This document shows, piece after piece, positions 5,432-55,959 of a stretch of 63,732 nt of DNA. Positions within the stretch are counted from its first letter, which is position 1, and the number at the start of each line of letters is the position of its first letter. Both the position numbers and the translations under genes were made by a program. Source of the DNA: a virus (taxonomy: Duplodnaviria > Caudoviricetes); IMG/VR virus record IMGVR_UViG_3300036770_004125, positions 1 to 63,732 of that record, one strand, 5' to 3'. The notes beneath the pieces were generated by a model that was not told the origin of the DNA, did not search any database, and saw only the letters and a program-made list of their open reading frames with translations.

Positions 5432-7084
5432 CTAACTTAAGTATTCCCACATATAAGATCTATCTCCATATTCATCTGCATACCATCTATCTCCATCACT
5501 GTCTACAAATGTACTTTCATCATTTATTCCATCTACTATAAATCCAAATGGTGACATGTCTTGCTCTACTTGATTTTTTTGTTCTTCGTATATTCTTTTC
5601 CGAATATCTTGATCTGTCAATTCTTTAAAATAATCTTGCAATATTAACCAAGAATACATTACAAGACACATCACTAAATCATCATTTCTTCCCTCTTCTG
5701 CCTCAAAAGAATTTGCTTTTTGTATAAAAGTAGTCAGTTCATTAATGATTTCAAAATCATTAAAAATTAACTTATTATCTTCTATTAAAGTTTTTAAATT
5801 TAAACAACCAACTTTTTTGGTTGTTTTAGACATCTTTACTCCAAGTTGAACTTTTTTACCAGAAAATCCTTGACCTAAAATTTGACCTGCTCTACCTCGC
5901 ATTGAACTCATCAAAAGATTTGGGTATTCTAAATCATAGTGAAGTCCTGCAGCCACTTGGTCCCCAACATCATTAACTTCACAAAGGACATATGCATTAT
6001 TATAAGATTTTGCTACATCTTTAATTATATTTGGGAACAGTATTGGTCTTATTTGATTATTTCTATACTTTGCTACTACTTTGTGAGGAAACTGTGACAC
6101 ATCAATCACTACAAAGGCAGAAAAGTCTTTTTCAACTCCACGAGCAACATCTACAGTAACGACATATGTATGCTCTTCTTGAGGATCTTCATAAACATCT
6201 AATCCTGCATTTGAAGTTTTTGGTTTATCAAATATTAATCTGTTTAATACGGGACCAGAAATTAAGGTATCGGATGAACCAAGGAACAAACATTCAAACT
6301 CTTGCCTCCATTGTGCTTCTGAGGTATTTGCAATTGTAGTCCTTTTAAATTCTTCATCTCTTCCAGGAACATCAGTCCAATGAACTTCAATTGGAACATA
6401 TTCGTTTCTACCTTTTTGTGCATCATCCCAAAGACGATAAAAATGATTCATTCCGTAAGGTGTACTTACGACGATAACCTTTGAAGATTTACCTGAAGTA
6501 ATTACAGGATATACAGAACTAAAAAAGTTATCAGCAACTGTATTTGGAACGAATGCAAATTCGTCCAAGAAAATAATATTATAAGTACCACCTCGGATAG
6601 AAGATGCTGAAGTAGAAGCTGCAGTTATCTTGGACTTATTTTCAAGTTCTAAGGATCCCTTGTTCCACGATAAGACCCCTTGCTGTAACCACTTGGGCAA
6701 ATTCTCATATCCTGTCTGGAGACGGGTTAGAAGGTCTCTGGCAGTGTTTGCTTTGTTTGCAAGAATAGCAATATTTACATTGTCATTGAATATTGCATAA
6801 TGAAGAAGATATGAAACTACTGTAGTACTTTTTCCAGACTGACGGGGAAGTTTACATATACTAAATCTATTCTCATGAAAAGTTTTTACCATATTTTCCT
6901 GAAAAGGATACATGTCAAATTCAGACAATCCATAATCAAGAGTTGTAATTTTTATATATTTTTTTGCAAAATAAACAGGATCTTGAGCACATTTAATCCA
7001 CTCAAGAACCTGTTCTTCTGTAAATTCAATTTTGGTATTTGCTTTTTTTAGAAGTGGATTACCAAGATAATGTTCTTCAGACAT
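5432..7084 (-). CDS. g17: Terminase large subunit (gp17)
   Basis: Walker A PRQSGKST, Walker B IIFLDEFAF, nuclease motif DDLVM. Confidence 0.98.
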   Translation of the reverse strand: MSEEHYLGNPLLKKANTKIEFTEEQVLEWIKCAQDPVYFAKKYIKITTLDYGLSEFDMYPFQENMVKTFHENRFSICKLPRQSGKSTTVVSYLLHYAIFNDNVNIAILANKANTARDLLTRLQTGYENLPKWLQQGVLSWNKGSLELENKSKITAASTSASSIRGGTYNIIFLDEFAFVPNTVADNFFSSVYPVITSGKSSKVIVVSTPYGMNHFYRLWDDAQKGRNEYVPIEVHWTDVPGRDEEFKRTTIANTSEAQWRQEFECLFLGSSDTLISGPVLNRLIFDKPKTSNAGLDVYEDPQEEHTYVVTVDVARGVEKDFSAFVVIDVSQFPHKVVAKYRNNQIRPILFPNIIKDVAKSYNNAYVLCEVNDVGDQVAAGLHYDLEYPNLLMSSMRGRAGQILGQGFSGKKVQLGVKMSKTTKKVGCLNLKTLIEDNKLIFNDFEIINELTTFIQKANSFEAEEGRNDDLVMCLVMYSWLILQDYFKELTDQDIRKRIYEEQKNQVEQDMSPFGFIVDGINDESTFVDSDGDRWYADEYGDRSYMWEYLS

Positions 7085-7098
7085 AATATAACTCTACA

Positions 7099-7353
7099 CT
7101 ACCATTTAACTTTATTCGCCCAATAAGCCGCTGACATTTTTCCTTTTGCTATATTTTTCGCATGTCTTGCCTTAAATCTTTCACGACGATTTGCATATGC
7201 TTCAGATTCACCTTTCTTTTTGGGTGATCCTTTTACACCTCTTTGGCCAAAGCGAATAATTTTCTCTTTTCCACTTTCACATGCTTTAACTACATGAGAT
7301 TTTCCAGTTTGAGAATCACCAACTGCTTGTGCTTTAGGTTTATTGCAAGGCAT
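7099..7353 (-). CDS. Basic hypothetical protein; probable C-terminal extension of the upstream ORF via -1 frameshift
   Basis: 84 aa with IRFGQ...RFKARH...SAAYWANKVKW; in the -1 frame relative to 7365..8930. Confidence 0.75.
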   Translation of the reverse strand: MPCNKPKAQAVGDSQTGKSHVVKACESGKEKIIRFGQRGVKGSPKKKGESEAYANRRERFKARHAKNIAKGKMSAAYWANKVKW

Positions 7354-7364
7354 CTCTGCCTTAT

Positions 7365-8930
7365 TTACTTTTTTTCTTCAGATATTTCAACCTCTTCACC
7401 CATAGGTTTTACATAATTTTTATTAGAACCCATTTTTGCACCACTACCACCTCTATATGCATAAACTAGAGGTTCTCCTTGTTTAAAATCTGCAACTCTG
7501 TAATTAATTACATTTGAACCTGGATAGATTTTTTGAATTTCGTCTGCAATTTCAATTCTTGAGGGAACTTTTGCTTGAGGGAAAAATATTTGAATAGTAT
7601 AATACTTACCTCTCCAAGATAAGGTTACAAAGACATTATTGCCAGTTTGTGCGGGCATTCTGCTTGCTTCATCAATACTTTCTTTTTGATATCCCTTTGC
7701 TTTTTTCACTCCCTTTTTAACTGGAACGCAATTTGGAACTTCTCTTCCATTTTTCATTTTCATTCCAACTTGAGTATATCCTTTCCAGCAAGGATTCTCT
7801 TCTTCTATAGACCCAGATTTAATAATATCAATAAACTCAGCATAATAATTACCATTTGCATCTCTTACTATAGAACTTTCTTTTTGAGTTTCCATTTTTT
7901 TGAGTTTACTGTAATAATTGGGAAGTTCATCCAAATGCTGAAGAGCAGTTATTCTTGCCTTACTTTTATCTGAAGTATGTTCAAATTCAACTTTTGTTCC
8001 GATTTCAACTTGCTTATGGATTTGATCTAAAGAAACCCCGTGCTTTTTAGCAAGTTCTTCTGGTGACTTATATGATTTTGTTGGACCCTTTGGATCCTTT
8101 TCTTCTGACATTGGACACTTATGTTTTCCATGAACAGGACAAGGTTTTCCTTCTCCAGTATGAGCACATGATTCTCCAACTGGTTTACCTATTCCAACCT
8201 CAGTTGGTTTAATTTTTTGTCCAGGAACTTTCATTCCCTCTGGAATTGGTTTACATACCCGATCAGTATTGCACCAATACATTCCTTTTCCACACTTTTC
8301 TTCGCCAAGAATTTTTTCAACTAAAGAAATTTCTTCTCCTAATTTTGGTTTTTGCCATTTAACACCAGTTCCTCCAAGATTTTTAGCAATATTACTTGCC
8401 GCTGCAGTTTCACCTGCCGTTCTTCCCTTTCCTGTTAATCCTTTTTGGGCAACTTTATTTCTCTTTACTTCTTTTTTATATGTATCTGGATTGATAGATG
8501 AACTTACTTCTTCTTCAACCTTTTCATCACTCTGTAAATATTCTGCTGCAGTGTCAATATAATCTGCTGCTTTTGTGATTTTTGATTGAACCCAAGCAGG
8601 AAGTTGTTGATTGCCAGACTTTATGGATTTTCTGAGGTTTTTTACTGCATTTTCAATTGAATCAAGTTCATTTCTTGCCATATAACCTTCATCATCTGTT
8701 TGTTTCCCAGAAGCAACTTCTTTGTGATCCTCGTGAATTTTTTTCATTTTTTCCTTAATCCAATCGTCTGGTGTCTTTTTATATTTATTTTTAAAAGAAT
8801 TATGAAGATCCTTTGCAGTCACATCATAAGATTTCATAATCTTTCTCATTAAACTATCAATAGAATCATAAGAAATATCATCTAATTTTAGTAACTTATT
8901 TTCTAGTTCTTTTACTGCTTTAGATAACAT
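7365..8930 (-). CDS. Modular charged protein between gp16 and gp17 (probable internal head protein)
   Basis: 521 aa with small modules (LPAWVQSKIT; KVEFEHT...ALQHLDE.PNYY; PCWKGY...VPNCV) separated by Glu-rich linkers. Confidence 0.7.
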   Translation of the reverse strand: MLSKAVKELENKLLKLDDISYDSIDSLMRKIMKSYDVTAKDLHNSFKNKYKKTPDDWIKEKMKKIHEDHKEVASGKQTDDEGYMARNELDSIENAVKNLRKSIKSGNQQLPAWVQSKITKAADYIDTAAEYLQSDEKVEEEVSSSINPDTYKKEVKRNKVAQKGLTGKGRTAGETAAASNIAKNLGGTGVKWQKPKLGEEISLVEKILGEEKCGKGMYWCNTDRVCKPIPEGMKVPGQKIKPTEVGIGKPVGESCAHTGEGKPCPVHGKHKCPMSEEKDPKGPTKSYKSPEELAKKHGVSLDQIHKQVEIGTKVEFEHTSDKSKARITALQHLDELPNYYSKLKKMETQKESSIVRDANGNYYAEFIDIIKSGSIEEENPCWKGYTQVGMKMKNGREVPNCVPVKKGVKKAKGYQKESIDEASRMPAQTGNNVFVTLSWRGKYYTIQIFFPQAKVPSRIEIADEIQKIYPGSNVINYRVADFKQGEPLVYAYRGGSGAKMGSNKNYVKPMGEEVEISEEKK

Positions 8931-8935
8931 TGTTT

Positions 8936-9385
8936 TTATGAATCTGTATTATTTAACTTATTTTTTAATAACTTTGAGAGTTCGGCAGTTGATCCTACAA
9001 AAAGTGCATTTGTAACATTAGTAGGACCATTTGAAGATTTAACCTCTTCAATATCTTTAAGTTTCTTCTGAAGTTCCATCAATTTATCTGTGGCATCGGA
9101 AACATTTTTAATCAATTGACCAACAACTTCATATGCTCTAGGAGATTCTGTTTCTTGAGCAAGTTCAAGAACACTGTTAATTGCTTCTTGACCCTTTTCA
9201 ATAATTGAATAAAAATTTGCTCTAGAATAATCATAATCTTTTTTTATATCGTTTGTTATTGAAACATTCTTTTTTTGTTCAACAACATCAATGTCAACAG
9301 AATTATCACTCTGTTGCACGATTTCGCTAGTAACATTAAACACTTCGTCAAGTTTATCAAATTTTTTTGCCATAGTTTTAACCAA
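8936..9385 (-). CDS. g16: Terminase small subunit (gp16)
   Basis: SPRAYEVVGQLIK and NALFVGSTAEL; lies between g15 and g17. Confidence 0.9.
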   Translation of the reverse strand: MVKTMAKKFDKLDEVFNVTSEIVQQSDNSVDIDVVEQKKNVSITNDIKKDYDYSRANFYSIIEKGQEAINSVLELAQETESPRAYEVVGQLIKNVSDATDKLMELQKKLKDIEEVKSSNGPTNVTNALFVGSTAELSKLLKNKLNNTDS

Positions 9386-13075: not shown

Positions 13076-16000
13076 TTATGCTAAAGCTATTGCTCTAATA
13101 TCTTTTAATTGAGGTACATATGACTGACTTGTACTAGTCATAATTAGTTTTATTCTATAGTGAGTAAATGAGGGTAAACTATTAGCAGTAAATTCATATT
13201 CTTTGAAGTTATTATTTTCAAAATCTAAAATTGAATTTCTTTCTACAAAGGAATCGGGTCTACCATCACTATTTTCAGGATCTATTGTTTCAAATAAATT
13301 ATTTAAATTATTAAATCCTGGGAACAATTCAAAAATAGGATCTGAATTTTCCTTATTATCTATTGAATAAAGTGCTCTAATATCAGAGAAAATATTAATG
13401 TCAGCAGAAACATAAAGTTTTAAAGATGTTGCTGGGTTCTGCAATCTTATAGTCTTAGATACATATAAGAAAGCATTTTGATCTCTAGTTAAAGAATTTA
13501 CTCTATTATCTCCAGGATATTCATCATCATTTACTATTTTATTGACTCTATTGGTTGTAGTAACAACACTTGCTCTAGTCAAATCTACACATGGAGATAT
13601 TCTAGAATCATTAGTTGATAAAGTTAGTGCTATATTAAAAGATTTATTTCCAGGCAAATCTGATAGAAGATTAGTTTCATTTACTGAAGAGCAAATCAGT
13701 CTTGGAGTTGAAAAGTAGTTATATTCACCTAAAGAAATAGGCGAGAATCCTTGATCAATAAAAGATTCTTCATTTCCAGAAATACTCTTTCCAGAAACTG
13801 TTCTAACCTGTGCTGATACATTAGTTTCATTTGGTGTAAATGTTTCAATTAATGGAGTAAGAACTTCAAATTGCATATTTTGTGTTGAAGAAACTTCAAA
13901 TCCTCCATCAAATTTACTACTTAAAAAGTATAAAGCAGGTGTCAGAGATGAGGATGGAGTTCTATCAGTAATTTCTAAATCTCCATCAATAAAACTTTCT
14001 TGGCTTACCTTTAAAGTATAATAGTCTAATCCTACAGGATTATCTATTGTCGCATCTTCTAATCTATGTGTTTTGTTTATTCTTAAAAGTGAAACACCAT
14101 TTATTTCATATTTTCTAATTTCACTATCTTGGTTATGTGAAGAAACGACAGTATTTTTTATTCCTCTTGTTATATCAATTAAAGATCCATTAGATACACC
14201 GAGATATTTAATAATTTCTCCGTTAAGTATTGCATATCCAGGATTTGATGGAGAAACTGCCAATCCTTCAAAATTTACAAATATGGTAGAATTAGTGACA
14301 GGTAAAGATCCTACAAAATCATTTGATATTGTTTGAGTTATTTTACTTGGTGGAACATCTGGAGTTACACCGGACAATTCAACATAATTTAATGATGAAT
14401 GCATACCATGATTTAAATGTCTAACTCTAAAATGTAATCCATCATTTTCAACTGTTATTGGAGAAACTGGTAAAACATTTCCTCCACTACCAGAATTTAA
14501 GTTAACAGTTAATCCACTGGAATTAATAAATGTAATAGTATTACCTGCACCAATATTAAAATTACCCTGAACATCTTCTAAAATAATTTCATTAAATTGA
14601 TTTATTTCTCCAATAGAGATTCTCAAGTTTCTTCCAAGATTATCAACCCCCAAATTATCTACAGTTAATACATCACCAATTTGGTATCCAAATCCACCAG
14701 AAACTATAGTAGCACCAATTGCAACTCCATCTTCAATTGTAATATTGGCAGTTGCTCCATTACCTGTTCCAGTTATTGCTATCAATGGAACATTTGGATA
14801 TGTAAAATATCCTAGTGAAGGAGTATATCCTATTCCAACATTATCTATAGAAATTCCAGTTTTAGGAGAAGTCCCTCCAGTAGCAATTCCAACCTTTCCT
14901 GCATATATTCCAAATGCGCCACTACTTGCTTGAGTAACCTCACTTCCTATTGGGAAATTAGATTCACTTTCTGTTATTGTTTTTGATAAACCTACTCTAA
15001 TCTTTCTAGAAATAAAATCTAGTGGGTTACTTATAAGAGTTGGAACTTGATTATTTCCTTTAGTTAGTTTTGGATTATAGAAATTGACACTTCCTGGATT
15101 TGTAGTAAACTCGGCACGATATAAAGTAAACTTCAAATCTTCATATTGGCTTGGAGTCCAAGTTGATGCATTTTGAGACTTAAATAGTGAACCCAAGATT
15201 GGTTGAGTAGTTATTCTTTCTCCAGTAAGAGTATCTAATGGGGGTGCAAAAGGTTCTTCCGCCACCTCAGGATCTCTTCCTAAGATTGAAGAAATCCAAA
15301 CAAAATAGGATGTAGAATTAGATAATAATACTATTGCATATTCTTGATTTCCTTCAATGTAAACGGGACTTTCAAATTCAAATGTAGTTGGAACTGATGC
15401 ATCATCAGATACATTAACTTGATCTGGATTTAACGAAACAGTACTAAATGGTAGTATAGTTTGGGTTGGGAACCCAAGATCCATAGTTCTAATCTGACAA
15501 GTTACTGGGATGGAAGCATCTTTTGTTTCAAAATAAACATCAAGTTTAGTTAAATAAACTCCATTTGGTTCATCACAAGCAAATGATTGTGCGAGTGGGT
15601 CAATATAAAGACCAGTAAATTGAGGTTCACCTGTTTTAGTATCATTAACTGTAATTACATCAATTTTAGCATTTCTGATTGAAATAATTTTTTCTTGAAT
15701 TTTTTGTGTTTTTCCTTCAGCAAAATAATCACTTTCTCCAGAAGTTCCTACAGTAACAGGTTGGTTTGTAGGATCGCTAGTTAATACAAATTTTCTTATT
15801 CCAGAATTAAACTTGGGATTTTGAATTATATTTGGATTTGGAATAAAGAATGATCCAATAATATCTCCAAATTTATCAGGTATCAAAGTAGTTGAAGATA
15901 CTACAGCAATTGCTCCACTTGTTCTTCCAACCAAAATATAATCTGGTCTTATTAATCCATAATAAGAAGTATCAGACATTAAGGACAATGATGATGTATC

Positions 16001-19000
16001 AATATTCAACAAAGTAGAAGATGAAGAATAATTTGAAATACTTTGTCCTGGAGAATATGGATTTTCTGTAAATGTTTCTGTGGGAGAATTAAATGGTCCT
16101 TTTTTGTGCGCCGGAGCAGCTACTCTGAAAGATCCTTCAACTGTAGATCCTTCAGATTTTTTAAAGTCAACAGTTTCTCCAATAATAAATGTACCGGAGT
16201 TCATAGTTATATTGATTAATTTGGGGAAGCATTGATTTGTTACATCAACACCATCAAAAAATGCATAAATTGTTGAATATGGTTTAAAGTTACTTGCTCT
16301 AAATTCAACATTTCTGGACCTTATATAAGGTTGTATATCTACAGAAGCAACTGAATCTCCTAGGGATCTGGTCTCAAAAGATTCAGTTACTGACAATCTA
16401 GTACCACTTCTTCCATATAAAGCATCTACAACTTGAACATAAAGACCACCAGTAGGAACTACTCCTGGTTCGGGTTTTACTTTAGAGAATGCTGAAGGAT
16501 TGGATGATTTAGCATCCATGAAATCATTTCTAACAGATTCAGACTCTGCTGTACCTCCACCTCTTCTACCTGTTCCACTTTTTCTAGCATCTACCCATCT
16601 TGGATTTCCATATCCCAATAAAGACCAAGATCCCCAAACTATTGGACCTAATCCAGTTTGCGGATCAAATCCTTGAGTCTTTGATAGTTGATTTAATGTT
16701 GACAAATAGTTTCCTTCTATTTGAACAGTTAATGGATCCAATCTAACAGTATCAATCCAAATGTCTGAAGAAGGATTAAGTTTAATATCTCCTTTCCAGA
16801 AAGTTAAGATATATGGTTGAACATTTTCAGTCCTAGTAGCATAAGGTTGTTTAATAAATTCAATATCTGAATAATTTAGTGTTACAATATCTCCACTTTT
16901 TCTTATATTTGTTCCTATTATATCGCTAGTTGATATATTTTGAATATCTTCATTTGTAGTAGATCCAATTCCTAATCCACCTCTTGTCGCAAGTAAAAGG
17001 TCTATTGAGGTAGTGTAGTGTGATGGTCTTAAAATATTTAAAAATGGATCAACTGAGTTTCTAATGCCAATTTTATCTTCTTGGGTAGATAAAGAACTAA
17101 AATTATCTACAAAGAAACCTGACTTAAATCTATTGATACCTGCGGAATCCAATATTTGTAAATTTGAAGTTTCAGTTTCTAATAAAGATAAAGTTGTATA
17201 ATATTCTAAATTTTTAATTCTAGTTTCTAATTTTGAGATATCAGACATTTGATATCTCTTGTGTTCAAATATTGTTATTGATGCTTTCTTAGTATCATAA
17301 AGATATGGAGGAAGAAAAACAGTAGCAATTTCTAAAGAATCCTCTACTGGTTGTGGTGCCTTGGGATTTTCATCAGGTATACCAGTTTTAACTATAAAAT
17401 TTTTATTTTTATCAACAAAAATTCTATCTATTCTTGGCAAATAAAAATCATAATCTAAAGGTATTGACTCATCGGATGCTAAAATATCAGATGCACTGTT
17501 TCCCTGCTGATTAAATTTTCTACCTTGAAACTCAAATGGAGATCTTGCCCCTTCAGAAACAACATAATCAGAAACTCTAGGTCTTATATCAATTATATCA
17601 GTCACCCTATACCCATTATGGACAGGTATATCATTTTTATAATCAAACAATTGATATGAACTTGCAGTTGTTATATCTCCATCATCTTGCGAATCATAAT
17701 ATGCATATTCAAAGAATATTTTTATCTTTGCTTGAGGTTCTAAAATTCCTTCTTTTCTTACAATTTTACCATAATCATAAAAAGTATCATTTTGACCAGT
17801 ATCATATGTAAAAGATTTTGTAATATTTTTACTAGGAGTTTCTAAAGAACTTATTACAGCAATAGTTCCAGATTCTTTAAACTCAACTATTTCTCCAACC
17901 TGGAAAACCGCATCATTTTGATATATTAAAGTTATTTGATTAAAAGAAATTCTTTCTGCAAAAATAGCAACTGCATTACTACGCTTACCTACAATTTTTT
18001 CTCCAATAACCAAGTCAGATGTTGTTGAAGTTGAATTTATTATTGTGGATAAAACTGCTTTAGGGGCAGAAGGGTCAGAAATTCCTAAAGACTCAAAAAT
18101 TCCATGGACTTTTATTACATCAGGAACATTTAAACATATTTCTCTGTCTTGAACTCTAGTTCCATATGGATAATTCCCATATTCTAAACCATCGTTTCTA
18201 GTTGCTGTTCCAATTCCAGATGTAGTAACTGTAGATTTATCAACGATTAAGGTTTTAACTCTAGTTTTTTTCTTAACTTTAGATTTAATATTTGTCTTTC
18301 TTAAGGTTGCAATTAAGATTGCTCCAGTATCATTTTCTGCAGTCAATCCTTTTATTTGCAATTCTTTACCATCAGTAGAAACTTGAACTCTATCTTCGGA
18401 TAGTGGTTCTATAGATCCACCAGAAGTGAATAAAGCATATCTTTCTTCATCATAAGGCAAAAATGCTTGATTTGATCCAGATGGAATAGTTTCTGTTGCA
18501 TAATTTGTTATGTTAACATTATACTGTTTTCTAATAATTAAACTAGAATTTGTAAGATTTACATTAGATACATTTTTCTTTGATAAAGGCGCATATAATG
18601 TATTGCTTAATCCTGGTAAATAATTACTATTCAATACAGATAAATCTAAAACTGAAATATTTTGATCGGGAAGACCTCCTTCGCAAACACCTACGACAGT
18701 AGATACTCCAACAATTTTTACTAATGTAGACAAATTATTATTGTCTGTTACTTCAGTAACTTTCGCATATTTTTTGACACCTAAAATATCAGAATCAGTA
18801 AAACTAACTATATCATTTACTTTTAAATTATCTAAGTATTCAACGCCAGGTATTACAATTGTGGAAATTCCTGCAGAACTTGCAGTAATTGAACAAATTC
18901 CAATAATATAAGAACTTGACAGTACTGTGTCGGCATTAAAAAATGAAGAAGAATTTGAAGAATATATTGATTTTACATCTGATATGCCATAAGAAGTAAC

Positions 19001-20608
19001 AGCAACAGCAACCCTACTATTTCTTATTCCATCAAAAGTAAATGATTCATTCTTCAAAAATTTACCATTGACATTATAAAGAGTAAGAGAAGTTGTATTT
19101 GTTGCAGTGTCTTTCAAATATCCAGTTGCACCACTTGAATTGCCTATTACATAAGTTGGTACAGTTAATGATATTGGTTGATTTAGTGTAATTTTTGTAT
19201 ATGTTTGAATATCATAAAGAGATAGATCCCATCGGTTTAAATCTAGAAAAGAACTATAAGATCCTTCTTCTAAAGCAAAATCAAATACTCTAGCAACTCC
19301 AATTTCATCTCCAGAAGATGAAGATGCTACTTCTCCAATTCTACTATCTCTTAAACTAACAGTATATGTATTTCCAATGCCAATAGTTGGAGATCCATTA
19401 ACTCTATTAACTGCCACTGTAGGGCCAGTATAATATAAAACAGATTCAACACCAGAATTTTTTATCGTTCTTGTTTTTGGAATATCTAAAAATGTAGGAG
19501 AATTTATTTCAACTTCATATCCTCTTACATATGCTTTTCCTGGTGAAACTTTATATATTGCAAGTTCTTCTGAAGCTGCATTACCTTGATAAGTTCTTTT
19601 ACCCTCAGAAAAAATGCCATTATTTCCTAATCTATCATTCAAAGACTCTTCACAACTTACTTGGAATCTTTTTACATAATAATCACCAGATTCTTCAAAT
19701 GTTCTCTTTGCGAATTTATCATTAATTAAATTATATAAAGTATCATTTGGAGTATCTCTTAATATACCCCCTTGAACTCTAGCAATTTCTATAAAGTTTT
19801 GATTATTATTATCATCTAATGGTTTTTTATCTAAAAATGCAGTTATTTTTAATCTATCTGCTCCAGGAGCCGCATAATTATTAAATCCTCGTGCATTGTC
19901 AGTTAAAGTTTCATCAAAAGAAGATGATATAATTTCCTCTAATACAGTAAATCCAACTCTATAGTCTGGAGTATTAGTGTATTGATCTAGTATTAAAGTT
20001 TGAGTAGGTACAGTTACAAAATGCCCTCTGAGATAATATACCCCAGTTGAAACTGTAAATGATGAACCAAATGAATTAGAATTTAAAATAACTGTAGAAG
20101 CAAAAGCATCTCCAGAAACAAAAGCACTATTTGATGTTACTAAATTTTCCTCAACAATTAAATTTTCTCCATCCTCAAAGAAAAAACTTTGATTATTTTG
20201 AGTACTTGCATTTAGATAACTAACATATATGGTTGCATTTCCTCTTTCCGATTCATTTGAGGTTAAAGTCTTATCTACAATTGCAGTTATTCCAGATCTT
20301 TCTCCTCTTATTTTTACACCGACCAATGCATCAATATATGATGATACATTGACACCTAAAAATTCATTATTGAGTTCTACCGCATTATAAAAACTATTGT
20401 AACTAGTTTGCCCAGGAATGACTTTGGCACCTTCTTTGAAGATGTGATCGCCAAATTTTTCAATTTGATTTTGTAGTATTGACTGTAATGTAGTTAATTC
20501 TCTAGCTTGAACAGGATATCCAGGTTTAAAAAGAACCCTGTAATAATTTTTATTTTGATCAAAATCATCAAAATATGGTGATACATTAAGATTAGTTTCC
20601 TGTGGCAT
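13076..20608 (-). CDS. Large virion structural protein (cyanomyophage baseplate-associated, DUF4815/VrlC-like)
   Basis: 2510 aa starting MPQETNLNVSPYFDDF...VLFKPGYPVQARELTTLQ; contains DPLAQSF. Confidence 0.85.
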   Translation of the reverse strand: MPQETNLNVSPYFDDFDQNKNYYRVLFKPGYPVQARELTTLQSILQNQIEKFGDHIFKEGAKVIPGQTSYNSFYNAVELNNEFLGVNVSSYIDALVGVKIRGERSGITAIVDKTLTSNESERGNATIYVSYLNASTQNNQSFFFEDGENLIVEENLVTSNSAFVSGDAFASTVILNSNSFGSSFTVSTGVYYLRGHFVTVPTQTLILDQYTNTPDYRVGFTVLEEIISSSFDETLTDNARGFNNYAAPGADRLKITAFLDKKPLDDNNNQNFIEIARVQGGILRDTPNDTLYNLINDKFAKRTFEESGDYYVKRFQVSCEESLNDRLGNNGIFSEGKRTYQGNAASEELAIYKVSPGKAYVRGYEVEINSPTFLDIPKTRTIKNSGVESVLYYTGPTVAVNRVNGSPTIGIGNTYTVSLRDSRIGEVASSSSGDEIGVARVFDFALEEGSYSSFLDLNRWDLSLYDIQTYTKITLNQPISLTVPTYVIGNSSGATGYLKDTATNTTSLTLYNVNGKFLKNESFTFDGIRNSRVAVAVTSYGISDVKSIYSSNSSSFFNADTVLSSSYIIGICSITASSAGISTIVIPGVEYLDNLKVNDIVSFTDSDILGVKKYAKVTEVTDNNNLSTLVKIVGVSTVVGVCEGGLPDQNISVLDLSVLNSNYLPGLSNTLYAPLSKKNVSNVNLTNSSLIIRKQYNVNITNYATETIPSGSNQAFLPYDEERYALFTSGGSIEPLSEDRVQVSTDGKELQIKGLTAENDTGAILIATLRKTNIKSKVKKKTRVKTLIVDKSTVTTSGIGTATRNDGLEYGNYPYGTRVQDREICLNVPDVIKVHGIFESLGISDPSAPKAVLSTIINSTSTTSDLVIGEKIVGKRSNAVAIFAERISFNQITLIYQNDAVFQVGEIVEFKESGTIAVISSLETPSKNITKSFTYDTGQNDTFYDYGKIVRKEGILEPQAKIKIFFEYAYYDSQDDGDITTASSYQLFDYKNDIPVHNGYRVTDIIDIRPRVSDYVVSEGARSPFEFQGRKFNQQGNSASDILASDESIPLDYDFYLPRIDRIFVDKNKNFIVKTGIPDENPKAPQPVEDSLEIATVFLPPYLYDTKKASITIFEHKRYQMSDISKLETRIKNLEYYTTLSLLETETSNLQILDSAGINRFKSGFFVDNFSSLSTQEDKIGIRNSVDPFLNILRPSHYTTSIDLLLATRGGLGIGSTTNEDIQNISTSDIIGTNIRKSGDIVTLNYSDIEFIKQPYATRTENVQPYILTFWKGDIKLNPSSDIWIDTVRLDPLTVQIEGNYLSTLNQLSKTQGFDPQTGLGPIVWGSWSLLGYGNPRWVDARKSGTGRRGGGTAESESVRNDFMDAKSSNPSAFSKVKPEPGVVPTGGLYVQVVDALYGRSGTRLSVTESFETRSLGDSVASVDIQPYIRSRNVEFRASNFKPYSTIYAFFDGVDVTNQCFPKLINITMNSGTFIIGETVDFKKSEGSTVEGSFRVAAPAHKKGPFNSPTETFTENPYSPGQSISNYSSSSTLLNIDTSSLSLMSDTSYYGLIRPDYILVGRTSGAIAVVSSTTLIPDKFGDIIGSFFIPNPNIIQNPKFNSGIRKFVLTSDPTNQPVTVGTSGESDYFAEGKTQKIQEKIISIRNAKIDVITVNDTKTGEPQFTGLYIDPLAQSFACDEPNGVYLTKLDVYFETKDASIPVTCQIRTMDLGFPTQTILPFSTVSLNPDQVNVSDDASVPTTFEFESPVYIEGNQEYAIVLLSNSTSYFVWISSILGRDPEVAEEPFAPPLDTLTGERITTQPILGSLFKSQNASTWTPSQYEDLKFTLYRAEFTTNPGSVNFYNPKLTKGNNQVPTLISNPLDFISRKIRVGLSKTITESESNFPIGSEVTQASSGAFGIYAGKVGIATGGTSPKTGISIDNVGIGYTPSLGYFTYPNVPLIAITGTGNGATANITIEDGVAIGATIVSGGFGYQIGDVLTVDNLGVDNLGRNLRISIGEINQFNEIILEDVQGNFNIGAGNTITFINSSGLTVNLNSGSGGNVLPVSPITVENDGLHFRVRHLNHGMHSSLNYVELSGVTPDVPPSKITQTISNDFVGSLPVTNSTIFVNFEGLAVSPSNPGYAILNGEIIKYLGVSNGSLIDITRGIKNTVVSSHNQDSEIRKYEINGVSLLRINKTHRLEDATIDNPVGLDYYTLKVSQESFIDGDLEITDRTPSSSLTPALYFLSSKFDGGFEVSSTQNMQFEVLTPLIETFTPNETNVSAQVRTVSGKSISGNEESFIDQGFSPISLGEYNYFSTPRLICSSVNETNLLSDLPGNKSFNIALTLSTNDSRISPCVDLTRASVVTTTNRVNKIVNDDEYPGDNRVNSLTRDQNAFLYVSKTIRLQNPATSLKLYVSADINIFSDIRALYSIDNKENSDPIFELFPGFNNLNNLFETIDPENSDGRPDSFVERNSILDFENNNFKEYEFTANSLPSFTHYRIKLIMTSTSQSYVPQLKDIRAIALA

Positions 20609-25200: not shown

Positions 25201-25484
25201 GGAAGAATAGTTGTTGATACTCCAGAAATAATAGTAGAAGCAATTCCTATAGGAACATCTTCATTTTCCTCATCATAAAAATATTCTATTTCTTCTCCAT
25301 TTGAATAAAAATTATCAATAATTCTTATAGTATTTGAAGGTATTCTTACCACAGAAGAGGAGTCAGATTGTATTGGGCGTTCAAATATCAATAAATTATT
25401 ATAAGTTAATAAAAATGAGTTAACTTCTCCAAGTGTAGGATCTCTATATTCACCGGAAGAAGAAGAAAAAGAAAGATTACTCAT
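22221..25484 (-). CDS. Baseplate wedge initiator gp7-like, C-terminal part
   Basis: 1087 aa with GSGY repeats and a C-terminal YSWGKI...R.NPLK; ATGA overlap with the upstream ORF. Confidence 0.75.
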   Translation of the reverse strand: MSNLSFSSSSGEYRDPTLGEVNSFLLTYNNLLIFERPIQSDSSSVVRIPSNTIRIIDNFYSNGEEIEYFYDEENEDVPIGIASTIISGVSTTILPKKLYVIKISNIDIRVASTAENALSDPPKPLIINSLGVGQHKFISKNQNKKCLITLDNVIQSPVVSTGITASLNETITRFSPIFELDNISNFKGGDLIKIDNEYMKIYSVGVTTTGGISESKIKVERAVLGTPATAHSIGSTITKFQGNYNIIENILYFISAPYGNELDRLNENISGSDLEYTNLDVRSKFSGRVFLRSGIPLGNEEAYKTNYLFDSLNESFDGYKRSFTLTSNGENISDFSTDNSIILINDIIQTPSRLSGVPLENDFFIEESAGISSVTFVGAAASVSYDVNTSQLPRGGIIFSVGSTEGFGYQPLVSAGGTAIVSVAGTIQSIVIGNNGSGYRSGIQTSVRVGVRTESSQIEYIGIGSIQNGTIISVNITNPGSGYTMSSPPQVIFDSPLSYWNLPLRYSSSSQPGVGTEATIDVVVGQGSSVISFDIRNLGFGYKSGDILTFDIGGQVGVPTNTDLQFEEFKIFVTDVRNDEFNGWSLGELQVIDNIDTFFDGERKIFPISINGNRVSIRPRIGYDIDLSANLIITINNILQTPKKSYDIRGGSLISFTEPPKKEDKCRILFYRGTKDVDTRDFDILETIKEGDNVRIYDRLDELNQDFRTVEEVITSDTIRTNIYGGEGISTDQDLSRPMIWCRQTDDKFINGNEVTKDRIIYEPLIFPETYLIQPVSSSSTEFFVENIKTFFDSSNEYELSENFQDKILLLSQETLRPAIASPVVVSNSVSNIQIIDSGTGYTESPSITISSPIPIGSGSTCTASTSINSNGEITTITIVNPGSGYTPTNPPTAIIEEPSISYELIDDISYEGDFGSIIGIGTTSMGGGIFGIYFDFYIPVDSYIRDQLVNRVGIATTGISGIKTDYYFTISNSNIGNNIDSLKNDDTSIGVSTNFIDNVYQVYDYSIGLKNIPGIGVTYVNTILTKVSNLDGIDESFGEYFGDYSWGKIISLRRRSPKEFKSYPVGITSSTIVRRYNPLKYSNYFA

Positions 25485-28400
25485 ACAGTTGTGACTCCAT
25501 CTTGACTGTTAATTCCTATAATTGAACTTAATATTTTAATTTCATAACTAATATCTTCATATGGAGTAAAGTAAAGTTCAAAATTTCCATTGGTATTGTT
25601 AATTTCAGAAGTAAATTCACCTATAGAACCATCAAAATTCAATACACCATATTCAACGACTAAAGATTCTTGTATTGAATTATTTAATAGAGTAGTCATT
25701 TCAATAAATTCAAATTTATTATTTGTTTTATCTTCAATTAAAATAATATTATAAGTTGCCGAATATCTAGTAGAATGATTAAAGACTAGTTTTTCTTCTG
25801 GAGTTCCTCCAGTCATTGAAGTTGAAATAAAATTGGAAGTTAAATCATTTCCTAAAATATCCAAACTTCCTTCAGTAGTATTAGTAGAGTCAATAGAAGT
25901 AATAATAGCATTCACGAATAGTGAATTTCCAACTCCAACACTTGGATGTAATTTTAATACTAGTTCATTACTCTCAATAGATGAACTAAATGTAACTATT
26001 CCAGATGTATGACTTGAACTAAAATTTGTATTATTTAAATCGCCATAATCATTAATCAAAACATCTGTATTATTGTGAAGTAAACTTATCTCATCAAATT
26101 GATAATAAGAATCTTCTTTATCTGAAATAGTAATTAGTATTTTATATGATCTTTGAGATGTAGATATTCCAGGAAGAGAAATAGGATCAGTCTCATTTTC
26201 TGCAATGATTGTATTTACATACTGAATTTTAGCAATGTCACCAATTTCTAGTGTGGTATTACCAACACCAACCAAGGTATCGCCAATTCCGAATGAAAAT
26301 GTGTTATATTTGTAAATCTTTCTTTCTGTAATTGAAGGGTAATAAAGCAATTGCCCAAATCTATCAATTTCGGTTTGGAAGTCAAAATAACCCAATGAAT
26401 CTTCACTAGAAATTATAGCATATTGATTTAAAAATCCATTTACATCATCATGCAACAAAGAAACAAGTAAACATTCTGATCTAGTTGGATCTAAAATATC
26501 ATAGACATATACAAAATATTTTTTGTAACGAATATCTGCTAATTCAAAATTATCAATAACTTGGAAATTTCTTGGTTCTGTTGTAGTAAATTTATCAGAG
26601 ATATCATCTATTACTAAAACTCTATTTCCTATAGATTCAATATAATCCTGAAGTATTCTAGAATCAAAATAAATTTCATTAGATTTTATTTTATTATTTG
26701 TTATGAAATAATTTTCAGATACGAGGTCAAAGTCATGGACACAATTAAAATTAATAAATTCTGATGATACACTTTCCGAATAATAATTTCCGAGATCTTG
26801 TGATGTAGATATTCCTGTATTAAAATTCTCATCTTGTACTAAAAGATCACTAAATCTTTTGAAACCAGAAGTATGAGTTATGTTACCAACAACATCATTC
26901 CACTTATTGATGTCAATCGGAGATTCTACGGAATATGAAAAATACTGATAATAATCACTATCATATATTCTTTGATTATTGTTATTTAAAAATCCGGTTT
27001 CTAATTTCCATCCCTGTTTTACAGTTGCATTTGATTTGATATCCAGATAAGTGTCAAATGATATTATATTCTCAATAATTGCCTTTACATTAGATGATTG
27101 TCCAACTAAAATATCACCAACAGTAAAATCTTTATTTGAAATAACTTTTAAGTAGTTATTTTCATTATCCCACCCCTTTACTATACCAGAATTATTAGAT
27201 GAGACTACCGTTTCATCTTTACTAAATTCAATAACTTTTAAGTTTGAATTAAATTCTGGAAGATAATTTTTAGGTATTACAGTTCCTTTAGAAAATCTAG
27301 TATCATAATCTCCGGGGATTTCTTCAGATCCTAAAAGATTTTCTAGACTATATGTGAAATTAGCACCACTTCCTCCAAAATTTGGAGTTAAAGTTTTAAT
27401 TTTAAATAACCTATATCCATAGTTTTCAGAGTTGTATCCTTTATCATTCTCAGATTCTACACTAACATTTTCAATTAATACTTCTTCTCCAATAGAAAAT
27501 GGGAAAGTAGATGGATCATTATATTGACCTTCAAGTATAACTGTAACATCTTTAGAGATATTATCATAAAAAATATCATTGATTAAAAATCCATTATCAT
27601 TATTGATAGGAATTATTGATGGTTCTAATTCACTAATACCCTTTGTATTTTGTATTATGGAAACCTTATTAGAATCAATGTCATATTTCAACTGCACATC
27701 ATCAACAACCTCATTTGTTATTCCATCCAATACAATTAAATCAGGATTAGATATGTAATTTTTTCCTCTGCTTGTAACTTCAATATAGTCAAAAGTATTA
27801 AAAGGTAAAATCTTAAGTATTGATGGGAATATGCACTTTGGTCTGACAGTAGTATCAAGAGAATAATTAAATCCAATATCTTTAATCTTCACATTATTGG
27901 AACTTACATTTCCAATAGTACTAGTAAAGATTTCTAAAATAGCACCACTACCATTTTCACTAATAATTTCTTTTACTTTTGGTACTTTTTTGTATAATTT
28001 TTTAGAATTATTTACGGAAACTTTTGATATTCCTCCAGATGTATTTGGAGAATCAGTTTCATAACTAATAATAGAATTATCACTGTCATAAACTAAAGAT
28101 TCTACCGGATTGGTTGTATTAAACAAGAATGTATTTGTAGTATAATCTATAATTTGCTGTTTACCTTGAATTTCACTATTAATTAATAAAATTTTATTAT
28201 GCTCTATTTGCTCTTTATCAATATAAATTTCCTTTTTATTTGGAGGGGTATTCAGCAAATCAATTGGAATCAATGAATAGTATAGATCATTTGGTAAATT
28301 TTTGGTTTTTAAAGTAATTGTTGAAGTACTTCCTATTCCAATAGATCCCGATTTTATCAGATCAAAAGTTCCAAATTCATTTTTAAAATTCTTATCATAG

Positions 28401-55647: not shown

Positions 55648-55959
55648 TCAATAAGAGTATGCAGAAGAAACCCAATCGTCGTATGCTGCCTCTCCGAGAG
55701 CATCGCAGATTTCTTCTACAATCTTTTTTGGTTCTGGAAGAGGAGAATCTACTCGGTTCCAATGATACATGATTACATCAAGAGGAATAGTTGAATCCAC
55801 ATCCCAACTGTAAGTATAACTGGGATACAATGGATCATTCATTTCCTTACTTTCGGCATCTTGTCGTGCCTCATCAATCTCATCAAGATACTGATGAAAC
55901 TCAACAGGAAGATTGTCCCATTCTGATTGGGATTGAGGTTCAGTGAGAACTTGACGCAT
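55648..55959 (-). CDS. Cassette ORF, acidic hypothetical protein
   Basis: 103 aa; stop codon at palindrome 55627. Confidence 0.65.
   Translation of the reverse strand: MRQVLTEPQSQSEWDNLPVEFHQYLDEIDEARQDAESKEMNDPLYPSYTYSWDVDSTIPLDVIMYHWNRVDSPLPEPKKIVEEICDALGEAAYDDWVSSAYSY

What the first reader, a model, noticed from the sequence alone, without database searches (positions are those of the whole stretch)
7347..7400. Canonical -1 frameshift signal fusing two ORFs between gp16 and gp17
Seen (minus strand): GAA GAA AAA AAG TAA ends the 521-aa ORF, placing the heptamer A_AAA_AAG immediately before the stop. Five nt later is a perfect hairpin, AAGGCA-GAGA-TGCCTT, and an SD-like GAGGT lies ~14 nt upstream. 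The -1 frame reads ...EEKK-VNKAE-MPCNKPK, open into the 84-aa ORF (7099..7353). Known: A_AAA_AAG with a 3' hairpin and upstream SD is the dnaX/IS3-family frameshift design. Inference: short and extended (~610 aa) isoforms of a putative head protein.
Basis: partly seen in the sequence, partly recalled or inferred. Interest (0 to 1): 0.78.

Follow-up and report, generated by a model that had tools for sequence, protein, structure and literature searches.

The report
Conserved -1 frameshift site in phage
An uncultivated T4-like phage most likely makes a short and a long version of a virion-associated protein by letting the ribosome slip back one base on the sequence A-AAA-AAG, a signal kept letter for letter in dozens of related phages.

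Summary
On the minus strand the 521-aa ORF (7365-8930) ends GAA GAA AAA AAG TAA. A 6-7 bp hairpin follows (7347-7362), and the 84-aa ORF (7099-7353) lies in the -1 frame.

The heptamer sits in a conserved cassette, GARGRGGTTGAAATA-N8-A_AAA_AAG, found in 36 unique junctions from viral contigs and 36 more from metagenomes. Two arrangements occur:
- A stop follows AAG and the -1 frame stays open 76-155 codons (20 junctions).
- The frames are naturally fused and the -1 frame stops within 1-9 codons (48 junctions).

In nine relatives the -1 ORF has no start codon before codon 10-143 (eight at codon 29 or later), so only a frameshift can express it. The heptamer's Lys codons never vary, whereas all 7 other invariant Lys columns do. 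None of 25 stand-alone homologues has the heptamer. A 3' hairpin, with different sequences, recurs in 15 of 20 split junctions against 9.5% of control windows. Independent assemblies show no indel in the A-run.

Verdict: a genuine programmed -1 frameshift of the dnaX/IS3 type in a new gene family, not experimentally shown. "Head protein" is unproven; a syntenic homologue carries the label virion protein.

The parts
8936..9385 (-). gp16-like small terminase subunit (149 aa), upstream neighbour
   Evidence: Pfam PF11053 DNA_Packaging E 1.2e-08. phrog_445 terminase small subunit E 4.1e-50.
7365..8930 (-). ORF521, the zero-frame product (short isoform). A multi-module protein ending ...GEEVEISEEKK-stop.
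   Evidence: Pfam DUF5661 at residues 290-348, E 2e-13. Nine different PHROG families match separate segments. Syntenic homologues lie upstream of terL in S-SM2, B3 and S-SCSM1; the S-SCSM1 one is labelled 'virion protein'.
7383..7397 (-). Conserved cassette 5' part, GAAGAGGTTGAAATA (E-E-V-E-I). It contains the SD-like GAGGT at 7390-7394.
   Evidence: GTT GAA ATA is invariant in the loci found by protein search. It is also present in 19 of 20 loci anchored on ORF84.
7368..7374 (-). Slippery heptamer A_AAA_AAG, the proposed -1 shift site
7365..7367 (-). Zero-frame stop TAA immediately 3' of the heptamer
   Evidence: In the 15 split junctions the codon after AAG is TAA in 8, TAG in 5 and TGA in 1; in the remaining one it is AAA, followed by TAG.
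7347..7362 (-). 3' hairpin AAGGCA-GAGA-TGCCTT. It overlaps an AAGG SD-like motif and the ATG of ORF84.
   Evidence: -7.6 kcal/mol. The same stem occurs in 7 unique split junctions, and different hairpins occur in other split junctions.
7099..7368 (-). -1 frame extension (89 codons: VNKAE + ORF84). Together with ORF521 it gives the 610-aa long isoform.
   Evidence: The linker V-N-K-A-E matches the N-terminal extension of stand-alone homologues.
7099..7353 (-). ORF84, a small basic domain of the phrog_7595 family
   Evidence: phrog_7595 E 6.5e-29. 48 phage records hold homologues. AlphaFold model pLDDT 88, a beta-hairpin plus two helices. No PDB fold match.
5432..7084 (-). gp17-like large terminase subunit (550 aa), downstream neighbour
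   Evidence: Pfam Terminase_6N E 3.4e-24 and Terminase_6C E 4.5e-13.

Best explanation
This is a programmed -1 ribosomal frameshift site. Most ribosomes translating ORF521 terminate at TAA right after ...EEKK, giving a 521-aa short isoform. On A_AAA_AAG a fraction slip back one base, with the P- and A-site tRNA-Lys re-pairing on AAA AAA. They then read GTA AAT AAG GCA GAG ATG... and append VNKAE plus the 84-residue basic domain, giving a 610-aa long isoform.

Three features are the likely stimulators, and this is inferred: the adjacent stop codon, the hairpin 4-5 nt downstream, and possibly the conserved upstream GAGGT.

What is shown is the sequence anatomy, its conservation and the coding nature of the -1 frame. 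What is inferred is the slip itself, its efficiency and the role of each stimulator.

The protein is a multi-module, probably virion-associated protein encoded between terS and terL of an uncultivated T4-like (Kyanoviridae-like) phage. In sister phages the two parts are fused in frame, the same heptamer is kept, and a -1 slip would hit a stop at once (GTC TGA). Both arrangements could therefore yield a short and a long form.
For: 1. Anatomy.

2. Conservation. The relaxed 15-mer occurred 144 times in the held loci. 48 instances carry AAAAAAG at the exact offset, and the other 96 lack it there; those listed lie in unrelated contexts. There are 36 unique junctions in viral contigs (15 split, 21 fused). 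The metagenome scan added 36 new unique junctions: 5 split, 27 fused in related contexts and 4 ambiguous.

3. Unbiased anchor. A pattern inside ORF84, with no demand on the upstream sequence, returned 20 loci. 19 have the cassette and heptamer.

4. Strict dichotomy. Either the 0 frame stops 0-1 codons after AAG and the -1 frame is open 76-155 codons, or the 0 frame is open 65-94 codons and the -1 frame stops after 1-9 codons.

5. -1 ORFs that cannot start on their own. The first ATG/GTG/TTG lies at codon 57-63 of 88-94 (L089, L093, L095), 29 of 147 (L084, L325), 69 of 153 (L103), 68 of 152 (L298) and 143 of 155 (L319). The -1 frame is closed 2-6 codons upstream of the shift point.

6. Nucleotide-level constraint. 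36 of 39 amino-acid-invariant degenerate codon columns of ORF84 vary synonymously, including all 7 invariant Lys columns. The heptamer's AAA AAG never varies. The preceding codon encodes 7 different residues and always ends in A.

7. Stand-alone control. None of 25 stand-alone homologues has the heptamer, and their Lys-Lys codons vary. The window's -1 linker VNKAE matches their N-terminal extension, although no start codon precedes it.

8. 3' hairpin. A stem of at least 6 bp starting 3-10 nt after the heptamer occurs in 12 of 15 plus 3 of 5 split junctions, with at least 6 different stem sequences. It occurs in 3 of 21 plus 7 of 27 fused junctions and in 9.5% of 3,267 control windows.

9. The split/fused state changed 3-5 times on the trees of the flanking regions, with at least 2 changes forced by well-supported branches.

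10. Not an assembly error. Identical 188-nt contigs span the site in two runs. A variant in a run of another study also has no indel in the A-run.
Against: - No protein, ribosome-profiling or reporter evidence exists. No RNA run was available.
- In the window, ORF84 has its own ATG with an AAGG 5 nt upstream, so separate initiation is possible and may coexist with frameshifting.
- The window's hairpin is weak and not significant on its own (z -1.5). It is absent in the L007-type and L084-type split junctions.
- The SD-like GAGGT is 15-16 nt from the heptamer, beyond the 10-14 nt recalled as optimal in E. coli.
- In-frame A_AAA_AAG is not depleted in the window's other genes (5 observed, 5.37 expected). 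There is thus no sign that the host's ribosomes are generally shift-prone on it.
- The host and its tRNA-Lys set are unknown. According to the Atkins et al. 2016 review (PMC5009743, passages read), only about half of bacteria have the single tRNA-Lys that makes AAG shifty.
- Part of the cassette's invariance is imposed by my search patterns.
Confidence: 0.8

Rival explanations
1. ORF521 and ORF84 are two ordinary adjacent genes. ORF84 is translated from its own ATG (7353), by an SD-like AAGG or by termination-reinitiation after the TAA 11 nt upstream. The heptamer is just a Lys-Lys C-terminus in an AT-rich genome.
For: - ATG with AAGG 5 nt upstream and an 11-nt gap.
- ORF84 homologues are stand-alone genes in 46 of 48 phage records at 80% coverage or more.
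- The heptamer occurs 5 times in frame in the window and is not depleted.
Against: - Stand-alone homologues start 9 codons before the MPCN Met. The window keeps that extension (VNKAE) in the -1 frame without any start codon.
- L007-type split junctions have no SD.
- Sister junctions with other downstream modules have no start codon for 29-143 codons.
- The heptamer is invariant at synonymous sites, whereas other Lys codons vary.
- Natural in-frame fusions show that the two parts work as one polypeptide.
Confidence: 0.1
2. The two frames are joined by transcriptional slippage. RNA polymerase adds one A in the A6-A7 run, giving mRNAs in which ORF521 and ORF84 are in frame.
For: - The window has a run of 7 A (GAAAAAAAG). 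Adding one A gives the same fusion protein.
- 8 of 15 split junctions have A7, against 0 of 21 fused ones in the viral-contig set.
- Slippage is used for dnaX in Thermus (Atkins et al. 2016, passages read).
Against: - Many split junctions have only A6 (GGA, GTA, ACA, GCA or TTA before AAA AAG). This is shorter than the runs of about 9 known to slip efficiently (recalled).
- The terminal G and the exact codon register are invariant, which slippage does not require.
- A recurrent 3' hairpin at 3-10 nt and an adjacent stop codon are features of ribosomal, not transcriptional, shifting.
- Three marine-type fused junctions do have A7, so the A7/split link is not strict.
Confidence: 0.07
3. The split arrangement is a broken (pseudogenised) fusion gene or a homopolymer sequencing error.
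For: Close relatives carry the in-frame fusion.
Against: - Split and fused linkers differ by 8 nt, not by one base in the A-run.
- 20 unique split junctions use TAA, TAG or TGA right after AAG.
- The downstream -1 ORFs stay open for 76-155 codons in a genome of about 35% GC, and they conserve the family's invariant residues.
- Contigs of two runs are identical over 7276-7463, and a variant in another study has no indel.
Confidence: 0.02

Closest known systems
E. coli dnaX tau/gamma programmed -1 frameshift
   Same: - Identical heptamer A_AAA_AAG.
- A 3' hairpin a few nt downstream.
- A purine-rich SD-like element upstream.
- In the fused relatives a -1 slip meets a stop at once (GTC TGA), as for gamma. 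The dnaX features are taken from Atkins et al. 2016, passages read, and partly recalled.
   Different: - Unrelated gene family, in a phage.
- In the window the slip extends the protein rather than truncating it.
- A zero-frame stop directly abuts the heptamer.
- The hairpin is much weaker (6-8 bp).
- The SD-like element is 15-16 nt away, not 10 nt (recalled).
IS3-family (e.g. IS911) orfA-orfB -1 frameshift
   Same: An A_AAA_AAG-type heptamer fuses an upstream ORF to a downstream ORF in the -1 frame, giving a fusion protein alongside the short one (recalled).
   Different: These are transposase genes. Their ORFs overlap by tens of nt and orfB usually lacks its own efficient start. Here the stop is adjacent to the heptamer, and the downstream part is a family that also exists as a stand-alone gene.
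Phage structural-gene frameshifts that add a C-terminal extension: T7 gene 10A/10B, Lactobacillus phage A2 major head protein, lambda tail chaperone G/GT
   Same: A -1 slip near the end of a morphogenetic gene makes a minority longer isoform. The lambda G/GT case is widely conserved in phages. A2 and G/GT are cited in the PRFect paper, PMC10885494 (passages read); T7 is recalled.
   Different: - Different heptamers and different protein families.
- Different genomic place, here between terS and terL of a T4-like phage.
- No case is known to me in which the same site alternates between extending and truncating arrangements among relatives.
phrog_7595 / weakly DUF5754-like small phage proteins (the ORF84 domain)
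   Same: - ORF84 matches phrog_7595 (E 6.5e-29).
- It is 46-70% identical over >=85% of its length to stand-alone proteins of SIO1-like, CRP and cyanosiphoviruses.
   Different: In the window it lacks the family's own N-terminal Met-Ala start. It is reached from the upstream ORF's frame -1. The family's function is unknown.

Membership tests
Programmed -1 ribosomal frameshift site (X_XXY_YYZ type, dnaX/IS3-like) | Slippery heptamer in the zero-frame register X_XXY_YYZ | tested here: met
   GA A_AAA_AAG TAA, with AAA and AAG as zero-frame codons 520-521.
Programmed -1 ribosomal frameshift site (X_XXY_YYZ type, dnaX/IS3-like) | The -1 frame is open from the shift point, is coding, and has no other means of expression | tested here: met
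   - 89 codons are open in the window, and the linker VNKAE is homologous to the family's N-terminal extension.
- In relatives, -1 ORFs of 88-155 codons have their first start codon at codon 29-143.
- For the window itself an own ATG exists 5 codons in, so this feature is met at family level and only partly for the window.
Programmed -1 ribosomal frameshift site (X_XXY_YYZ type, dnaX/IS3-like) | Heptamer conserved beyond what the protein sequence requires | tested here: met
   - The heptamer is kept in all 36 unique viral-contig junctions (a set selected with a pattern that includes the heptamer) and in 19 of 20 ORF84-anchored loci.
- 7 of 7 other invariant Lys columns vary synonymously.
- 0 of 25 stand-alone homologues have it.
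Programmed -1 ribosomal frameshift site (X_XXY_YYZ type, dnaX/IS3-like) | 3' stimulatory RNA structure 5-9 nt downstream | tested here: met
   - Window: a 6-7 bp hairpin 4-5 nt downstream, -7.6 kcal/mol.
- Present in 15 of 20 split junctions, with at least 6 different stem sequences, against 9.5% of 3,267 control windows.
- This is prediction only. The window's hairpin alone is not significant.
Programmed -1 ribosomal frameshift site (X_XXY_YYZ type, dnaX/IS3-like) | 5' SD-like stimulator at about 10-14 nt (range recalled) | tested here: inconclusive
   GAGGT (GGGGT in 4 of 36) is conserved, but it lies 15-16 nt upstream. Its conservation is partly imposed by the search patterns.
Programmed -1 ribosomal frameshift site (X_XXY_YYZ type, dnaX/IS3-like) | Transframe protein is actually made | not testable with these tools
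   No RNA holder was listed and no proteome is available.
Programmed -1 ribosomal frameshift site (X_XXY_YYZ type, dnaX/IS3-like) | Host decodes AAA and AAG with a single tRNA-Lys(UUU) | not tested
   The host is unknown. The window encodes no tRNA.
Transcriptional slippage site | Long homopolymeric A/T run (about 9 or more, recalled) | tested here: not met
   The run is 7 A in the window and 6 A in many split relatives.
phrog_7595 (ORF84 domain) | Significant profile match over the family's length | tested here: met
   E 6.5e-29, residues 3-84 against profile positions 17-96 of 96.
Capsid (head) structural protein | Match to a known capsid, decoration or scaffold family, or proteomic detection in heads | tested here: not met
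   - Pfam and PHROG give only families of unknown function.
- The only hint is the label 'virion protein' on the syntenic S-SCSM1_29, which matches residues 419-499 at 46.9% identity.
- The supplementary proteome table was not seen.

The most novel reading that the evidence does not exclude
The roughly 30-nt sequence GARGRGGTTGAAATA-N8-A_AAA_AAG is a portable recoding cassette that marks module junctions in the multi-module virion protein next to the terminase genes. It sits after at least four different upstream modules and before at least four different downstream modules. It has switched several times between two arrangements: 'stop after the heptamer', where the slip extends the protein, and 'in frame', where the slip truncates it at GTC TGA. 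Every variant would therefore make a fixed ratio of a short and a long isoform. The cassette may also serve as the recombination joint by which C-terminal modules are swapped.
Probability: 0.3. Interest if true: 0.75.

Novelty: new member of a known kind. Interest (0 to 1): 0.6.

Why it matters
Programmed frameshifts in tailed phages are well documented mainly for tail chaperones and a few capsid genes. This would add a conserved site in T4-like phages of aquatic environments, in a gene family that annotation pipelines currently split into two 'hypothetical proteins' or miss.

It gives a clear annotation rule: join the ORFs at A_AAA_AAG. It also offers a natural series of split and fused variants for studying how stimulators tune shift efficiency. 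Finally, it hints that these multi-module virion proteins need two isoforms. The mechanism itself is textbook, so the surprise for a recoding specialist is moderate.

Tried and rejected
- **RNA evidence.** The look-up of sequencing runs listed no RNA holder. Expression and transcript A-run length could not be examined.
- **Avoidance test.** In-frame A_AAA_AAG is not depleted in the window's genes. Power was low, and the result is uninformative about host shiftiness.
- **Function of ORF84.**
  - The AlphaFold model is good (pLDDT 88.2).
  - Foldseek against PDB gave nothing (best E 2.4).
  - BFVD gave only uncharacterised phage proteins (5 hits at E <= 0.001).
  - A profile search against PDB sequences gave only noise (E 0.027, a ribosomal protein).
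  - Pfam gave weak DUF5754 matches in 34 of 70 members (best E 0.0014).
  - The protein atlas gave unnamed viral clusters.
- **Cultured relatives.** No record in the phage collection carries the cassette. ORF84 hits (48 records) include no hit of myovirus genome size among the 40 listed rows (8 more not listed). ORF521 hits never cover 80% of the query.
- **Literature.** Six searches and passages of three papers gave no description of this site. Subscription journals and supplements are not covered.
- **A7 versus A6.** The idea that fused junctions never have an A7 run held in viral contigs but failed in metagenomes (L320, L329, L338).
- In one search two L007-type rows were mis-registered, because a second AAAAAAG lies in their linker. 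Their true heptamer is shown.
- **Ambiguous hits.** Four metagenome hits (L302, L321, L328, L344) have the pattern in contexts I could not relate to the family. They are left out of the split/fused counts.
- **Host tRNA-Lys complement.** Not examined, because the host is unknown.
Full report
**Observation**

On the minus strand the window reads ...ATG GGT GAA GAG GTT GAA ATA TCT GAA GAA AAA AAG TAA AT AAGGCA GAGA TGCCTT GCA ATA AAC C....
- The 521-aa ORF (7365-8930) ends in Lys-Lys-stop. A_AAA_AAG (7368-7374) is therefore in the X_XXY_YYZ register, directly before TAA (7365-7367).
- Five nt further lies a perfect 6-bp hairpin (7347-7362). RNAfold extends it to 7 bp, -7.6 kcal/mol.
- The 84-aa ORF (7099-7353) is in the -1 frame.
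- After a -1 slip the ribosome would read V N K A E M P C N K P K... for 89 codons.
- The neighbours are a gp16-like small terminase (8936-9385) and a gp17-like large terminase (5432-7084).
- The window is an IMG/VR viral fragment of about 30% completeness, 34.7% GC, with no tRNA genes. Its nearest named relatives are T4-like Synechococcus myoviruses.

**Is it more than chance?**

Taken alone, hardly.
- In-frame A_AAA_AAG occurs 5 times in 18,253 codons of the window and is not depleted (5 observed, 5.37 expected under synonymous-codon shuffling).
- The hairpin has a z-score of only -1.5.
- Only this heptamer sits on the last two codons of an ORF and opens a long -1 ORF (89 codons against 10, 10, 12 and 43).

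The case rests on comparison with relatives.

**Relatives**

A scan of viral contigs with ORF84 returned 80 loci.
- Most are stand-alone genes of about 75-100 aa. In four close syntenic loci the gene lies just before terL (one, L006, with another ORF between).
- Two of those four keep A_AAA_AAG plus a stop with ORF84 in the -1 frame (L005, L007).
- The other two are natural in-frame fusions (L006, L008).

A scan with the C-terminal 150 residues of ORF521 and scans with DNA patterns enlarged the set.
- The heptamer belongs to a conserved cassette, GARGRGGTTGAAATA-N8-A_AAA_AAG, which encodes (E/G)-V-E-I-x-(E/D)-x-K-K.
- In all held loci the relaxed 15-mer occurred 144 times. 48 instances carry the heptamer at the exact offset. 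The other 96 lack it there, and those listed lie in unrelated genes, which gives a natural control.
- There are 36 unique 127-nt junctions in viral contigs: 15 split and 21 fused.
- The metagenome scan added 36 new unique junctions: 5 split, 27 fused in related contexts and 4 that I could not relate.
- Some of these searches include the heptamer or the 15-mer in the pattern. I therefore also anchored a search inside the first 23 nt of ORF84, with no demand on the upstream sequence. 19 of the 20 loci have the cassette and heptamer, 12 split and 7 fused.

**The dichotomy**

- In every split junction the zero frame stops 0-1 codons after AAG (TAA 8, TAG 5, TGA 1, AAA-TAG 1), and the -1 frame is open for 76-155 codons.
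- In every related fused junction the zero frame runs on for 65-94 codons, and the -1 frame closes after 1-9 codons. In 18 of the 21 viral-contig cases it closes as GTC TGA.

**-1 ORFs without a start**

The downstream module is not always ORF84.
- In L089, L093 and L095 the -1 frame encodes a conserved 88-94-aa module (..EDWQKVNRKDKTDGLSQKAVNAYKKENPGSKL...RINKALRRW.C.). Its first ATG/GTG/TTG is at codon 57-63.
- In L084 and L325 (147 aa) the first start is at codon 29. In L103 (153 aa) it is at 69, in L298 (152 aa) at 68, and in L319 (155 aa) at 143.
- The -1 frame is closed 2-6 codons upstream of the shift point.
- These conserved ORFs can only be reached from the upstream ORF by a -1 shift at the heptamer.
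- The same C-terminal module is joined in frame in many other relatives, where it is followed directly by terL.

**Nucleotide-level constraint**

- In the ORF84-anchored set (17 loci, 14 unique), 36 of 39 amino-acid-invariant degenerate codon columns of ORF84 vary synonymously. These include all 7 invariant Lys columns. The two Lys codons of the heptamer are always AAA AAG.
- The codon before them encodes E, A, G, V, T, L or S, and always ends in A.
- Twenty-five stand-alone homologues begin M-A-x4-K-x-x-M-x-C-N, that is, 9 codons before the 'MPCN' methionine. Thirteen have a Lys-Lys there with varying codons. None has the in-frame heptamer.
- The window's -1 linker V-N-K-A-E fits that N-terminal extension ([VL]-[ND]-K-[KSA]-x), although no start codon precedes it. 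These five codons are therefore coding in the -1 frame and are only reachable by a shift. This is the strongest argument for the window itself, where ORF84's own ATG would otherwise be a sufficient explanation.

**Stimulators**

- A stem of at least 6 bp starting 3-10 nt after the heptamer is predicted in 12 of 15 split junctions from viral contigs and 3 of 5 from metagenomes.
- At least six different stem sequences are used in different downstream modules.
- The same criterion is met in 3 of 21 and 7 of 27 fused junctions, and in 9.5% of 3,267 control windows from the same ORFs.
- The hairpin is thus a recurrent, convergent feature of the arrangement that needs the shift. It is absent in the L007-type and L084-type junctions.
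- The stop codon abutting the heptamer is universal in the split class bar one. It is the classical 'shifty stop' context (Weiss et al. 1987, seen only as a reference).
- The upstream GAGGT is conserved but lies 15-16 nt away, so its role is open.

**Evolution**

On trees of the ORF84-domain DNA and of the upstream 276 nt (cassette excluded), the split/fused state changes 5 and 3 times. At least 2 changes are forced by well-supported branches. The heptamer stays fixed throughout.

**Artefact excluded**

- Logan contigs of two runs are identical over 7276-7463 with no indel.
- A run from another study (freshwater label) holds the L005-type variant (TGA stop) at depth 72, also without an indel in the A-run.
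- Split and fused linkers differ by 8 nt, not by one A.

**What the protein is**

- ORF521 is a mosaic of small modules: DUF5661, weak DUF5660, and nine PHROG families on separate segments.
- Syntenic genes upstream of terL exist in cultured Kyanoviridae: S-SM2 SSM2_109 (T4-like gene cluster 119), B3 gp273 and S-SCSM1_29. None has the cassette.
- S-SCSM1_29 is labelled 'virion protein'. The paper reports 45 virion proteins by mass spectrometry (PMC9602691, passages read; the table is in supplements I could not open). 'Virion-associated' is a fair inference, but 'head protein' is not shown.
- ORF84 is a basic domain of a beta-hairpin plus two helices (pLDDT 88.2). It has no solved structural relative. 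It is widespread both as a small gene and as a terminal domain of larger phage proteins. Its function is unknown.

**Mechanism and rivals**

- Best reading (0.8): a programmed -1 ribosomal frameshift giving 521-aa and 610-aa isoforms.
- Separate initiation at ATG 7353 (0.1) may coexist, but it does not explain the family.
- Transcriptional slippage (0.07) is disfavoured by A6 runs, the invariant G and register, and the hairpins.
- Pseudogene or sequencing error (0.02) is contradicted.

**Comparison and novelty**

- The design is that of dnaX and IS3 elements: the same heptamer and a 3' hairpin.
- The biological use resembles T7 10A/10B, phage A2 head protein and lambda G/GT.
- I found no description of this site in six literature searches or in the PRFect paper.
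- It is a new member of a known kind.
- The most novel reading still open is that the cassette is a portable two-way recoding joint at module boundaries.

Noticed in passing
window 55648-55959 (-): This 103-aa ORF has an in-frame A_AAA_AAG at codon 77. The -1 frame stays open for 43 codons, longer than the 24 codons left in the zero frame.
   Followed up: no
L084 2941-2990 (+) and L268: In these split junctions the heptamer plus TAG is followed by CACCTCCTT. This looks like the 3' tail of 16S rRNA and is complementary to the cassette's upstream GAGGT. No local 3' hairpin is predicted there.
   Followed up: no
L007 2960-3010 (+), L206, L211: The split junctions of this type have a second AAAAAAG inside the 11-nt linker (TAA ATA AAA AAG AAA TG). 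They have neither a hairpin nor an SD-like motif before the ORF84 ATG.
   Followed up: partly
L091 and L229 (zero-frame proteins printed): A heptamer-less, in-frame variant of the linker (GEE-R/Q-E/K-EIEPPRE...) precedes an extra module. A second, canonical cassette then leads into the ORF84 domain, so the linker motif can occur twice in one protein.
   Followed up: partly
window 13076-20608 and 25481-34501 (-): Two giant ORFs of 2,510 and 3,006 aa lie in the structural region. They were not examined. The 3,006-aa ORF also holds one of the five in-frame heptamers.
   Followed up: no
The window's phage is therefore probably a large T4-like virus. Runs holding the window carry subsurface and freshwater metagenome labels.
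   Followed up: no
L002 (Synechococcus phage S-EIVl) 1-1749: In this unrelated 79-kb cyanophage the ORF84 homologue follows a 901-aa hypothetical protein with an ATGA overlap. The small domain thus tends to travel with large proteins in other lineages as well.
   Followed up: no
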